Made by a program: the position numbers and the translations under genes
Notes under the pieces: generated by a model
What the model was told of the DNA's origin: nothing
What the model saw: the letters and a program-made list of their open reading frames with translations, nothing else
Database searches by the model: none
Shown here: piece by piece, positions 13,956 through 63,800 of the stretch
How the letters are laid out: every line of letters begins with the position of its first letter
How positions within the stretch are numbered: position 1 is the first letter of the stretch
DNA from: Heterodontus francisci
Taxonomy: Eukaryota
Direction: 5' to 3'
NCBI RefSeq assembly: GCF_036365525.1
Contig: NC_090406.1
Coordinates: 41,569,007-41,633,006, forward strand
Length of the DNA stretch: 64,000 nt

Positions 13956-14560
13956 TCAGTAACTTTGCTGTTTTAGAACTCAAAACATCTTGAATGTTTT
14001 GACATATTTGATGAAGTATTTGTAGCACAGACAGAGAGACCATTTTGGCCATCAAATCCATGCAAGTATTTTTCTCCAAATCATTCCGTCTAATTTCACT
14101 CCTGCTGGCTTCTCCAATCTTTTCCAATCACCCTCTAATTGTGTTTCAAAAATACTTATGCGCTCTGCTTCAGCAAAGTTAGCATATTCTCAACCAATCT
14201 CTGCAAAAAAAAATTCTTTGCAATTATCTCCAATTTGTGCTGTCTTGTTTGACCAATGAAAGCACTATGTCACTGTTTGACTTGTCCTTCAAAAGTTTGA
14301 AGACCTCGATTAGTTCAGCCCTTAATCTAGTGCTGACAAAAAACCCAATACCTTGAATCTCTTCAAAAATATTATTCATCTCGGGCAACTGTTTCTGCTG
14401 CTTTTAATTGTTTCACATCTGGAGTAAGCTGGGGGGTTGTAACTATGATGTTTAGTTTTGTGGGTCTGGTGGGTTGTGGCATTCTGGTTAAATACTTGCT
14501 GTTGGTTGGAATTGTTTTGTTTGAGAGCTGGCAGTTCTGATCTTTCCGACTTCCCTACAG

Positions 14561-14645
14561 ACAACTGGAGTACTAAAGCCAAAAGGAGAAACACAACTGG
14601 TACAGGCCGCATGAGGCACTTGAAGGTGGTGTATCGCAGATTCAG
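14561..14645 (+). CDS. RPL37: RPL37 exon 3
   Basis: CCCTACAG|AC...AG|GTAAG, 85 bp. Translates (Y)[27 protein letters not shown](R). Confidence 0.98.
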
Positions 14646-15855
14646 GTAAGAGATGCAGTGGCAGTGAGAAGGTATCCATACCGGTTGTGGAAGCAAAGTT
14701 AATGTTCCTGATGGCTATTCCAGTGTGTGTGATGGTCAAGTGTCTACTTTTCATTAAGGTGAAAGATTTAAAAATTGTGTTGGGGTGTATCTCTGGGAGA
14801 GGTCAGTGTTGGAGGGAATTGAGTGTATCTGGGAGAGGGCGGCATTGAGTATATCTACGAGAGGGTGGTATGCTGGATTAGAGCACTCTTTCTATCTTCT
14901 GGAATTTAATTTGAGTCCAACCCAATCTGCTGAATTTTCAGTGTCCCAAGTCAATTGAGTTTGGACACTGGGAAACTTCTGGAAGTCAAACTGATGTGAG
15001 TTCTAGACATATTTAGAACATTTTAAGGCCATAAAACAGGAGAAAAATACCACAATGCTTTTATAATTTGGATTCAGGTGCTGGGCTGGGGATAGTGGGA
15101 GGGGGAATGAATCTAAAATGCTTAGGGCAGTGTGGCCCAAATTCATTATTAAAATTGTGCAAATGTTATGAATGCAGAGCGGGCATTTGGGAAACCCTCA
15201 TTGAGTATATTTACATCTGTGTGCACTTCCTGTCTTTAAAGCGTTACTCCATGTTGTCACATTTGTCCGTTTTTCCATTCTAAATTCCTGTATATACATT
15301 CACCATGTAAACTTGGCATATGGTAACTACACCCTCCTGTCAGTGATGGCACTGTAGTGCTAGGCTTGGTGTCTCCTTCCATCTCTATTTCCTAAATTGC
15401 CCATAGTTTTGCAATTTATGATATAAAATCAAAATAACACCACACACAGAGTAGGAACCAAATGTCGTCTTCGAATGGCCGAGTTAGAGAGTAGGTCATA
15501 ATTGTGCTTTTATAAGTAGCCTCATTTTAATTTCTTATTATTTGTATACTTTCATTTACAATAATCTTGGTTAAAGGAAGGAAGGATTTGACATCTTTCA
15601 TGTCCTCAGGACTTTCCAAAATGCTGCATAGCAAAGCCTGGGGCAATTTGGGAAGTCTTTTTGGAGCTTAGGGTTTTCCACAATAAAGGTGATGGAGCTT
15701 GGAGAAACAAAACTGACACTACAATGCAACTGTTGTCTGGAGGGCGTAATTTCAGCATGAAAATCATCAAACTTAGAGAAGATAAAACCCCTGGTCTAAA
15801 TGGATTGCATTCATGCATGTTTTAAAAAAAAGTTAGGGAAGAGATAGCAGAGGCA

Positions 15856-59924: not shown

Positions 59925-60215
59925 TTAGTTCTCGGGCTGCCCTTCATCCTGCTTGCGATGACTGGGTGTAGTCCCACCAGTGGCCACTGCTCCCAATGGC
60001 GCTGCTGGGACTAAGAACTGCCGGCTTTGCTGATTGGCCGGCAGCTCCATTAGTCAAGCTTCCTGCCTCAAGGTGTTGGATGTCCCACTCAAGGCCAATT
60101 AAAGGCTTGGGGCGGCAAAAAATCCCGGTCAGGTTCCCCAGGCCCGGTGGAGCTGTGCTGGCCACCAACTTTACGGCCGGTGGATGAGGCCTCCCGGCTA
60201 ACGAAAAATTCCTGC

Positions 60216-63200
60216 CAGAGAGACCATTTCACCCATCAAATCCGTGCAGGCATTTTTCTCCAAATGAATCATTTAGTCTAATCTCACTCCTGTTGGCTTC
60301 TCAAGCCCTTCAGTCTTTTTCAATCACCCTCCAATCATCTTTCAAAAATACACATGCACTCTGCTTCAGCAACAGTTAGCATATTCTGAACAAACCTTTG
60401 CAAAAAAAATTATTTGTAATTATCTTCAATTTTTCTCTCTTGTTTGAACAGTGAGAGCACTGTGTCACTGTTTGACTTGTAGTCCTTCAGAGGTTTGAAG
60501 ACCTCAATTAGTTCAGCCCTTAATCTAGTGCTGAAAAATAAATCCCAACACCTTGAAATCACTTCGAAAAAATATTACCCCTCCTCTCTGGTAACTATTT
60601 CTGCTGCTTTTAATTGTTCGACATCTGGAATAAGCTGGGAGGTTGTAACTCTAATTCTTAGTTATGTGGGTCTGATGGTTGTGGCATTTTTTGTAGTTAA
60701 ATAGTTGCTGTTGGTTGGACCTATTTTGTTTGCGAGCTGGCAGTTCTGATCTTTCTGACTTTCCTGCAGATAACTGGAGTGTTAAGGCCAAAATGAGAAA
60801 CATAACTGGTACAGGCCGCGTGAGGCACCTGAAGGTGGTGTATCGCAGATTCAGGTAAGGGATGTAGTGGCAGTGAGAAGCTACCCATACTGGTTGTGGA
60901 AGCAAAGTTAATGTTCCTGATGGCTATTCCAGTGTGTGTGATGATCAAGTGTCTACTTTTCCTGAAGATGAAAGACAAAAAATTAAAATGGGCCTTTAGA
61001 AAATATTGTTGGGTTGTAACTCTAGGAGAGGCTGGTAGTGAGGGGAGTATATCAGAAACAGGGTGGTGTTGGGGGGCATTGAGTGTATCTGGGAGAGGGC
61101 AGCGTTGCGTGTATCTGGGAAAGGGTGGTATGCTAGATTAGAGCACTGTCTCTATCTTCTGGAATCTAGTTTGAATCCAACCCACTCTGATGAATTTTCA
61201 GTGTCCCAAGTCAATTGGTTTTGGACACTGGGAGCCTTCTGGAAGTCAGACTGATGTAAGTTCTAGACATATTTAGACTATTTTAAGGCCATAAAACAGG
61301 AGGAAAATACCACAATGCTTTTATGATTTGGTTTTGCTGGGCTGGTTAGTGGGGGTGGGGGGGGGGTGCGGGTGCGGGGATGGGGGATGAATCTAAAATG
61401 CTTAGGGCATCGTGGCCCAAATTCATGATTAAAATTGTGCAAATGTTACGAATGCAGAGCGGGCATTTGGGAAACCCTCACTGGGTATATTTACATCTAT
61501 GTGTACTTCCTGTCTTTATAACCTTACTTCATGTTGTCACATTTGTCAGTTTTTCCATTCTAAAATTCCTGTATGTACATTCACCACGTCAACTTGGCAT
61601 GTGGTAACTACGCCCTCCTGTCAGTGATGGCGCTGTAGTGCTAGGCTTGGTGTCTCCTCCTTTCTCTATTTCCTAAATTGCCCTAAGTTTTGAAATTTAT
61701 AATATAAAATCAAAATAACACCACACACAGAGTAACAGCCAAATGTCGTCTTCGGATGACCAAGTTAGCGAATAGGTCATAATTGGATCAGTATGTGCTT
61801 TTATAAGTAGCCTCATTTTAATTTCTTATTATTTGTATACTTTCATTTATAATAATCTTGGTTAAAGGAAGGAAGGATTTGACATCTTTCATGTCTTCAG
61901 GATGTTCCAAAATGCTGCATAGCAAAGCCTGAGGCAATTTGGGAAGTCTTTTTGGAGCTTAGGGTTTTTCCACAATAAAGGTGATGGAGCTTGGAGAAAC
62001 AAAACTGACACTACAATGCGAGCGCTGTCTGGAGGACATAGTTTCAGCATGAAAATCATCAAACTTAGAGAGGATAAAACCTCTGGTCCACATGGATTGC
62101 ATCCATGCAAATTTAAAAAGAGTTAGGGAAGAGATAACAGAGGCACTATTACATAAATATAAAAAAATCATTAGAAAAGGAAATAGTGCCAGAGGACTGA
62201 TGGACAGTTAATGTTTTTTGTATTTAAAGAAGGAGATAGAACTAGTCCAAGAGCATGGGAACAGGAGTAGGCTCTTTAACCCTTGAGCCTCTTCCGCCAT
62301 TTAATAACCTTCTAAATTCCAAGAGTCCAGGTATCATTCTGATAAATTAATGCTGCACTCCTATATCCTTCCTGAGGTGTGGTGCCCAGAACTTCTTGCA
62401 GTGATCCAGGTGTGGTCTAATTAGGGTTTTGTATAGCTGAAGGATGATTTCAAATCCCTTCTATTTTATTCCTCGAGCTATAAAAACCAATTTTCCATTA
62501 GTCCTTGATTATTTTCTGTATCTGTTCATGACATTTTAATGATCTATGCACCTGGATCCCCAAATCTCTTTGGACCTTCAATGTTTCTAGCTTTTCATTA
62601 TTTAGTAAGGACCCTGTTCTATCCTTTAGGTCCAAAGTAGATGATCTCACATTTGCCTACATTCAAATCCATTTGCCACTGTTTTGCTTATTCACTTAAT
62701 CTATCAATATCTTTGTAGTTTTATGCTTCCATCTACTCTATTTACAATGTTATCTATCTTTCCGTCATCTGCAAGCTAGAATTAGTGGCTTTCTATCTCA
62801 ATATCTAAGTCATGAATAAATATGGTGAATAGTCGAAGGCTCAACACAGATTCTTGCAGGACACCACGAGTCGCATCCTGCCAATTGGACTATGCGCCCA
62901 TTATCCCTACTCTCTGTCTCCTGCCGTTCAGCCAATTTCCTAACCAGGACAGTAGTTTGCCTTTAATTCCATGACCTTCAACTTTAGCTAATAGTCTCCT
63001 ATGAGGGACTTTATCAAATGCCTTCTGGACATCCAAATAAATGACATCCATAGTCATTCTTCTGTCCACTACTTTAGTCATCTCTTCAGAAAATCAATCA
63101 AGTGTGTCAGAATCACAGAACTATAGACAAGTTAGATTTGTGCTCGGAAAAATAATGGAATCTTTACTCAAAGATGTAATAGGAAAGCATCTAGAAACTC

Positions 63201-63800
63201 AAAATATAATGGTCAGTGGATTTCATGCTTCAAAGGGTCGGAAGTGGTGTTCCACCGGGATCAGTGGTGGGATCACTGTTCACAATGATTTGAGCTTGGG
63301 AGTTCGTAATATAATTTCAAAATTTGCAGACAACTCAAAACTGAGCTTGTATAGTTAAGAGTCAGGAAGAATACAACAAAATACAGGATGACAGGTAGCA
63401 TAGTGAAAATGTTAATGAACTACTAATCCTGAGGACTGGACTAGTGCTCCAGAGAGCTAAGATCAAATCCCACTATGGCAGCTGCAAGTATTTAAATTCA
63501 ATTAATTAATAAATCTGGAATAAAATGCTAGTCTCATTGTAAATAATCATGAAACCACCAGATTGTCTTAAAAAACCATCTGTCACTAATCCACTCTGGT
63601 ATTTATGTGACTCCAGATCCAAAGCAATGCGGTTGACTTCATACCTGTCCTCTGAAATGGCCGAGCAAGCCACTCAGTTGCAGTTGGCTCACCACTACCT
63701 GCTCAAGGGCAATTAGGGATGGGCAATAAATGCTGGCCTTGCTAGTGAAGCTTATATCCCAAGACAAATTTTTCAAAATTGCGGAATGGTCATGTAGTTG
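60216..63800 (+). repeat. Segmental duplication of about 14032-18900 (RPL37 intron 2 end, exon 3, intron 3)
   Basis: Colinear similarity read by eye from CAGAGAGACCATTT to GAATGGTCATGTA. It lacks three TE insertions present in the source copy. Confidence 0.95.
60770..60854 (+). pseudogene. RPL37: Duplicated RPL37 exon 3 (orphan exon)
   Basis: 8 differences in 85 bp from 14561-14645. Translates (Y)[27 protein letters not shown](R). Splice sites are intact, but no copies of exons 1, 2 or 4 are seen in the window. Confidence 0.9.

What the first reader, a model, noticed from the sequence alone, without database searches (positions are those of the whole stretch)
14032..63800. IgL-sigma cluster bracketed by two RPL37 copies: a possible 46-kb amplification unit carrying a ribosomal-protein gene fragment
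Seen: 60216-63800 is a direct, intron-containing copy of 14032-18900, and the single V-J-C cluster lies between the two copies. Known: shark Ig genes multiply as whole V-J-C clusters. Inference: the duplicated unit may run from RPL37 intron 2 through the IgL cluster, so each new cluster would carry a headless RPL37 3' part. That would give a neutral marker of Ig cluster birth, and it predicts an RPL37 exon 4 copy and a second sigma cluster to the right of this window.
Basis: partly seen in the sequence, partly recalled or inferred. Interest (0 to 1): 0.75.

Follow-up and report, generated by a model that had tools for sequence, protein, structure and literature searches.

The report
Dead RPL37 fragment beside shark IgL-sigma
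A shark genome holds an old, decayed 3.6-kb copy of the middle of a ribosomal-protein gene 46 kb downstream of the intact gene, with one antibody light-chain gene between them; it is likely the left edge of a single ordinary tandem duplication rather than a marker left by every antibody-gene birth.

Summary
60216-63800 is a direct, intron-containing copy of 14032-18900 (89.4% identity over 3447 columns, K2P 0.115). One split L-V-J-C sigma cluster lies between them. Its V is identical to a protein NCBI names from the horn shark. The left RPL37 is a complete four-exon gene. The right copy holds only exon 3, which has decayed at the neutral rate, so it is old and dead. It is not an assembly echo. 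For a one-off 46-kb tandem unit: direct orientation, two other horn shark sigma proteins, and sigma genes sharing one chromosome in 15 other elasmobranchs. Against or limiting: homology stops 200 bp before the window ends; the left edge abuts a transposon-like element; only one RefSeq horn shark sigma protein was found; and the window's V lineage is shared with catsharks and houndsharks, so sigma clusters probably began multiplying before this copy arose. Verdict: an ordinary segmental duplicate, about 50% likely co-duplicated once with the cluster and unlikely to be a general birth marker.

The parts
10076..10105 (+). RPL37 exon 1 (5' end approximate; ATG at 10103-10105, then GT donor)
   Evidence: sequence
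12994..13129 (+). RPL37 exon 2
   Evidence: Pfam Ribosomal_L37e E 2.3e-21; PDB eL37; splice sites
14561..14645 (+). RPL37 exon 3 (intact gene)
   Evidence: PDB eL37 residues 48-75, E 1.6e-13
20386..20455 (+). RPL37 exon 4 coding part to stop; exons sum to 294 nt = 97 aa + stop
   Evidence: no second copy in window
14032..18900 (+). Source block of the duplication (end of intron 2, exon 3, part of intron 3), with three repeat insertions absent from the copy (near 15856, 16972, 18231)
43616..43623 (+). Octamer ATTTGCAT upstream of the leader (Ig promoter motif; its role is recalled knowledge)
43727..43775 (+). IgL sigma leader exon
   Evidence: matches P0001 N-terminus
43880..44200 (+). IgL sigma V exon
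   Evidence: Pfam V-set E 2.8e-16; 100% identical to P0001
44201..44228 (+). V 12-RSS (consensus heptamer, nonamer 8 of 9)
44542..44580 (+). J 23-RSS (consensus heptamer at 44574, nonamer only 5 of 9)
44581..44617 (+). J segment (FGQG motif, GT donor)
49557..49882 (+). C sigma exon to stop; AATAAA at 50228
   Evidence: Pfam C1-set E 1.1e-18
58807..60219 (.). Transposon-like element with 15-nt imperfect inverted ends, abutting the left edge of the copy; split by a Penelope-type piece (59236-59927) with a 14-bp target duplication
   Evidence: inverted repeat I9, 80% complementary; TSD; 95% to the element at 3758-4435
60216..63800 (+). Duplicated RPL37 block (intron 2 end, exon 3 relic, intron 3 part)
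60770..60854 (+). RPL37 exon 3 relic; AG and GT kept, frame open, 4 residues differ from the intact exon
63801..64000 (.). Unrelated sequence after homology ends (an insertion, or the true end of the duplicate; unresolved)
   Evidence: no match above shuffles in 4 of 4 target regions

Best explanation
The block at 60216-63800 is an old, neutrally decayed genomic copy of the middle of RPL37, and it is likely the left end of one tandem duplication that would have started in RPL37 intron 2 and run through the IgL-sigma cluster. Shown: the direct copy; introns retained, so DNA-level and not a retrocopy; about 11.5% divergence; exon 3 decayed at the neutral rate; later repeat insertions into the intact gene. 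Inferred: a single unequal-crossover or replication-error event copied roughly 46 kb (less, before later insertions) head to tail. That would leave RPL37 - sigma - headless RPL37 3' part - sigma'. The RPL37 piece lacked promoter and exons 1-2, so it would have been dead from birth, while the sigma copy could survive and exchange sequence with its neighbours. It would be a one-off passenger, not a recurring feature of cluster birth.
For: Same strand and order, 46.2 kb start to start, with the cluster between. In a plain tandem duplication the unit is the start-to-start interval (established mechanism). PMC12642534 (passages) reports a vertebrate-wide bias to duplicates under 1 Mb apart. Exon 3 differs at 8 of 85 bases against 10.6% for the block (P=0.45). 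Against vertebrate eL37, 4 nonsynonymous changes fall on the copy, about the 3.5 expected for a neutral branch of 63 sites (my arithmetic), which fits death at or near birth. The horn shark has further sigma proteins: P0043 (V 89 of 95, C 105 of 108 identical) and P0005 (V 73 of 95, C 104 of 108). 3-4 C differences fit K=0.115 at omega 0.15-0.25 (P 0.08-0.57). P0043 is a mosaic of window-type and P0005-type residues, as expected for neighbours that exchange sequence. In 15 of 15 other elasmobranch species with two or more non-isoform RefSeq sigma-like proteins listed, the rows share one contig length.
Against: Homology ends at 63800 and the last 200 bp match nothing in the window, so continuation is not shown. 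Only 1 RefSeq horn shark sigma protein appeared in two searches (42 and 53 hits). This is weak, since the P0005-type gene is also missing from those RefSeq rows. At omega 0.4 or higher the C paralogues are too similar for K=0.115 (P<=0.011), unless homogenised. The left edge coincides with a transposon-like end. Sharing a contig in other species does not show tandem spacing or linkage to RPL37. P0043 could be an allele or a chimeric record.
Confidence: 0.5

Rival explanations
1. A local dispersed duplicate of a few kb of RPL37 (templated insertion or transposon-assisted) landed downstream of the cluster and has nothing to do with Ig cluster birth.
For: Visible homology is only 3.6 kb and stops inside the window. 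The left edge abuts an element with inverted ends. PMC12642534 passages say most segmental duplications are about 1 kb in scale. Only 1 RefSeq sigma protein was found for this species.
Against: Direct orientation with the cluster between is what a tandem unit predicts. The species has more than one sigma gene. In the intact gene the sequence simply continues past 18900 while the copy switches abruptly, which an insertion into a longer copy would also give.
Confidence: 0.27
2. The duplication was larger and included the whole RPL37 gene; promoter and exons 1-2 were later deleted or replaced by the transposon-rich stretch 50250-60215, so 60216 is not the breakpoint.
For: The left limit is exactly the end of a transposon-like element. 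The stretch to its left holds a decayed LTR-type element and LINE pieces.
Against: No trace of exons 1-2 or intron 2 left of the junction (scores 33 and 24 against shuffle maxima 34 and 28). The copy's nonsynonymous load fits death from birth, though power is low.
Confidence: 0.12
3. One reading: the RPL37-to-IgL unit is the recurring amplification unit, so every sigma cluster is preceded by a headless RPL37 part.
For: Same geometry as the best explanation; several sigma genes per species on one contig.
Against: Only one relic is seen. The window's V groups with Mustelus and Scyliorhinus V (99/85) apart from the P0005 V, while C groups by species (97/92 for the three horn shark rows), so cluster history includes older duplications and homogenisation. 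The two divergent RPL37-like proteins that could be compared (white shark, sawfish) lie on contigs of other lengths than those species' sigma genes; exon-3-only relics would not be annotated, so this is weak.
Confidence: 0.08
4. Assembly artefact (false duplication or retained haplotype).
For: None found.
Against: 10.6% mismatch, 32 gaps and three insertions private to one copy. Four DNA runs of one sample hold 0.75-0.79 of the 676 sampled words of 57500-64000 (possibly the assembly's own source, so not independent).
Confidence: 0.02

Closest known systems
Elasmobranch IgL sigma (type IV) V-J-C minicluster; horn shark sigma ABO64185 (P0005), nurse shark ABO64184-8
   Same: Single V, J and C in one orientation, split V-J with 12/23 RSS; 86% identical over full length to ABO64185, which PMC4762898 lists as horn shark sigma (passages). 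Cluster organisation is described in PMC4279169 and PMC5192425 (passages).
   Different: Different V lineage from ABO64185 (73 of 95 identical; CDR1 two residues shorter); J nonamer degenerate; linkage to RPL37 not found in print.
Unprocessed (duplicated) pseudogene fragment at the edge of a tandem segmental duplication
   Same: Introns retained, direct orientation, under 1 Mb from the source, neutral decay (PMC12642534 passages).
   Different: The right end is unseen, so unit length and content are not established.
RPL37 processed pseudogenes (retrocopies)
   Same: Dead, diverged RPL37 sequence; RPL37-like diverged proteins are annotated in white shark, sawfish and basking shark.
   Different: This copy keeps introns and has one exon only, so it is not a retrocopy. 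Whether those annotated proteins are retrocopies was not tested.

Membership tests
IgL sigma minicluster | [quoted passage not shown] | tested here: met
IgL sigma minicluster | Sequence closest to named sigma chains | tested here: met
   Named sigma records P0005, P0011, P0043 are among the top hits or in the same 90% cluster
IgL sigma minicluster | Grouping with sigma against sigma-2, kappa and lambda in a tree | not tested
   trees hold sigma-like rows only
IgL sigma minicluster | Rearrangeable V and J with a 12/23 RSS pair | tested here: inconclusive
   V 12-RSS near consensus; J heptamer consensus but nonamer 5 of 9 at spacer 23; rearrangement not observed
Unprocessed pseudogene fragment | Introns retained | tested here: met
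Unprocessed pseudogene fragment | Loss of coding constraint | tested here: met
   8 of 85 exon differences against 10.6% block-wide; pN 0.079, pS 0.113, Fisher P 0.65; low power
Unprocessed pseudogene fragment | Not used in a transcript | not testable with these tools
   no RNA result obtained
Tandem duplication unit containing the Ig cluster | Direct orientation with the cluster inside the start-to-start interval | tested here: met
Tandem duplication unit containing the Ig cluster | Homology continues through exon 4 to a second cluster | not testable with these tools
   window ends 200 bp after homology stops; no genome held
Tandem duplication unit containing the Ig cluster | Ig paralogue divergence matches relic divergence | tested here: inconclusive
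   protein level only: compatible at omega 0.15-0.25, not at 0.4 or higher
Recurring cluster-birth marker | One relic per additional cluster | not testable with these tools
   one relic and one cluster in view

The most novel reading that the evidence does not exclude
The headless RPL37 piece rides with sigma clusters whenever they duplicate, in the horn shark and perhaps other elasmobranchs. It would then give a neutral clock for cluster births that can be set against the species-wise homogenised C domains and the trans-species V lineages seen here, separating recent birth from gene conversion.
Probability: 0.1. Interest if true: 0.5.

Novelty: new member of a known kind. Interest (0 to 1): 0.22.

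Why it matters
A mapped, neutrally evolving breakpoint would date one Ig cluster birth in a shark independently of Ig coding sequence. That is useful because sigma C domains group by species while a V lineage crosses orders, which could mean recent births or conversion. As it stands it is one ordinary duplicate with a plausible but unshown link to the Ig array, so it matters mainly as a cheap, well-defined test case.

Tried and rejected
Whole-genome search: no genome is held. Laying public contigs or reads over RPL37 gave no result, so exon-4 copy number and junction support remain open. Sequencing-run search listed no RNA holder on record; this says nothing about expression, and the small-share rows were not used. 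snoRNA passenger: Rfam gave 0 matches at gathering score in the whole window, 1 chance-level match at E 3.4 in 9000-21000 and 0 at E<=1 in 60200-64000; rejected. Idea that 63801-64000 is an LTR like that of the element at 50250-52750: score 21-22 against shuffle mean 24; not supported. Repeat-mediated (NAHR) junction: no homology left of the two breakpoints above shuffles. Exact target duplications of convincing length were not found for the three intron insertions (best 6-9 nt). 3 versus 0 insertions is not significant (P 0.25). Idea that this RPL37 is an odd second paralogue: its unusual residues are shared with white shark, sawfish and basking shark RPL37-like proteins, so they are an elasmobranch trait. 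RPL37-sigma synteny in other species: the exon-2 homolog search returned 0 hits because my E cut-off was too strict, and the representative search gave no usable shark orthologue. The catshark 'IgLsigma' in Table S1 of PMC12227049 lies on a chromosome with coordinates beyond 133 Mb, longer than the 131.9-Mb contig of the catshark sigma proteins found here, so it was not used. VGP preprint PMC13320880: passages do not separate shark light-chain types, and the 3 supplements held as text have no Ig table rows for this species. Criscitiello and Flajnik 2007 is not held. Earlier scan findings: 0 in 5 of 5 look-ups.
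Full report
Observation. Self-comparison of the window finds 14032-18900 repeated on the same strand at 60216-63800 in four colinear blocks. A global alignment gives 3082 of 3447 columns identical (89.4%), K2P distance 0.115, with fairly even identity of 0.855-0.97 per 200 columns. The gaps between blocks are three insertions (678, 333, 343 bp) present only in the left copy. The first is 94% identical to another repeat copy at 26786-27473, so it belongs to a family younger than the duplication. 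Only 18% of the right copy matches other repeats in the window, so the match is not a shared transposon.

Genes. RPL37 is complete on the + strand: exon 1 ends with the ATG at 10103-10105, exon 2 is 12994-13129, exon 3 is 14561-14645 and exon 4 is 20386-20455, together 97 codons plus stop. Identity is confirmed by Pfam L37e and PDB eL37 chains. The copy carries exon 3 only (60770-60854), with both splice sites intact. Exons 1, 2 and 4 and L, V, J and C have no second copy in the window (8 of 8 probes). The Ig cassette has leader 43727-43775, V 43880-44200 with a 12-RSS, J 44581-44617 with a 23-RSS whose nonamer is only 5 of 9, and C 49557-49882. The V is 100% identical to P0001, which NCBI names from Heterodontus francisci. 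P0001 shares a 90% cluster with a record named sigma (P0043) and is 86% identical to ABO64185, listed as horn shark sigma in PMC4762898 (passages). No tree against other isotypes was built.

The relic is old and dead. Exon 3 differs at 8 of 85 bases, no fewer than the block average predicts (P=0.45); pN is 0.079 and pS 0.113. With vertebrate eL37 as outgroup, four replacement changes fall on the copy and one on the intact gene. Four is about the neutral expectation for one branch, which fits a copy that never had a promoter, though power is low. With assumed rates of 0.3-1.0 x 10^-9 per site per year (my assumption, not a tool result) the age is about 60-190 million years. The measured epaulette shark rate of 7 x 10^-10 per generation (PMC10587355, passages) points to the older end or beyond. 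An assembly artefact is very unlikely at this divergence. Four DNA runs of one sample hold 0.75-0.79 of the sampled words of 57500-64000, which may not be independent of the assembly. Rfam finds no snoRNA in either copy.

The two ends. On the left, homology begins exactly at the end of a 1.4-kb element with 15-nt imperfect inverted ends (58807-58821 and 60205-60219). That element is itself split by a Penelope-type piece with a 14-bp target duplication. Nothing further left matches RPL37 intron 1 or 2 above shuffles. So 60216 is either the breakpoint or the edge of a later insertion or deletion. On the right, homology stops at 63800 and the last 200 bp match nothing in the window; this may be an insertion into a longer copy or the true end.

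Indirect evidence on a second cluster. The species has two other sigma protein records: P0043 (V 89 of 95, C 105 of 108 identical to the window gene) and P0005 (V 73 of 95, C 104 of 108). P0005 has a CDR1 two residues longer, like other sharks' sigma V, so it is a separate germline gene. P0043 matches the window gene at 27 of 37 variable columns, P0005 at 9 and neither at 1. It could be a recombinant third gene, an allele or a chimeric record. C differences of 3-4 residues fit a split at K=0.115 if omega is 0.15-0.25, and do not if it is 0.4 or more. In 15 of 15 other elasmobranch species with two or more non-isoform RefSeq sigma-like proteins listed, all RefSeq rows of a species share one contig length. 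I left out two species with isoforms only, one species with no contig data, and two rows from older draft assemblies. Against this, only one RefSeq horn shark sigma protein was found among 42 and 53 hits. The P0005-type gene is also absent from those rows, so the annotation or assembly is incomplete for sigma, or copy number varies.

Why the marker idea is weak. In trees of 30 chosen sigma-like rows, C domains group largely by species or genus (three horn shark rows 97/92). The window's V groups with one Mustelus and one Scyliorhinus V (99/85), apart from P0005. At least two V lineages therefore predate the split of these shark orders (or were exchanged), and C has been homogenised or re-duplicated since. 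A relic with 11.5% divergence is probably younger than that split (inference; the split time is recalled). It can then mark at most one later birth, most simply the one separating the window-type from the P0043-type gene.

Mechanism, with odds. Most likely (0.50) one tandem duplication from RPL37 intron 2 through the cluster left a promoterless passenger. A local few-kb duplicate unrelated to Ig gets 0.27. A larger duplicate whose 5' part was later lost gets 0.12, a recurring unit 0.08 and an artefact 0.02. Shown: the copy, its age class, neutral decay, the single cluster between, and other sigma genes in the species. Inferred: unit length, co-duplication and mechanism.

Comparison with what is known. 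Shark IgL genes in V-J-C clusters of variable number are textbook (PMC4279169, PMC5192425, PMC12227049; passages). Proximal segmental duplicates are the common kind in vertebrates (PMC12642534, passages). I found no paper linking RPL37 to IgL sigma: 0 papers for rpl37 + shark + synteny; 0 of 25 listed held both rpl37 and the light-chain term; the 3 of 20 listed that held both are on chicken, trout and cattle and were seen as listings only. The library lacks most subscription papers, including the original sigma paper. The Ig locus table of the VGP preprint was not among the supplements readable here and may bear on cluster number. The finding is a new instance of a known kind; interest 0.22.

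Noticed in passing
window 44542-44580: The J recombination signal has a consensus heptamer but a nonamer matching only 5 of 9 at spacer 23; it may lower rearrangement or be normal for shark sigma.
   Followed up: partly
P0043 (WKK30314.1) against window 43727-49882 and P0005: A horn shark sigma record that is a mosaic: window-type leader to CDR1 and CDR3/J, P0005-type residues in CDR2, FR3 and C. Its source name calls it a heavy chain, which does not fit a V-J-C light chain.
   Followed up: partly
window 43880-49882 and P0003, P0006: Sigma C domains group by species while one V lineage is shared by horn shark, houndshark and catshark, suggesting concerted evolution of C with old V lineages kept.
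   Followed up: partly
window 10103-20455: This RPL37 differs from vertebrate PDB eL37 at several otherwise conserved residues; the same residues occur in white shark, sawfish and basking shark RPL37-like proteins, so they are an elasmobranch trait. Rfam finds no intronic snoRNA (the human gene hosts one, recalled).
   Followed up: partly
window 3758-8630: Inverted pair of near-identical Penelope-type elements (99% over 1429 bp) with long open RT-bearing frames, just upstream of the RPL37 promoter; a 95% identical piece sits at 59236-59927.
   Followed up: no
window about 50300-55700, minus strand: Decayed LTR-retrotransposon-type element (integrase zinc-binding domain, E 2e-12) directly after the C sigma poly(A) signal.
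   Followed up: partly
window 60791-60793: A substitution in the exon 3 relic creates an in-frame ATG; if an exon 4 copy exists, a short C-terminal eL37 peptide could be read. No evidence of use.
   Followed up: no
window 15856-18574: Three repeat insertions entered the intact gene's intron after the duplication and none entered the copy's matching stretch; not significant (P 0.25).
   Followed up: yes
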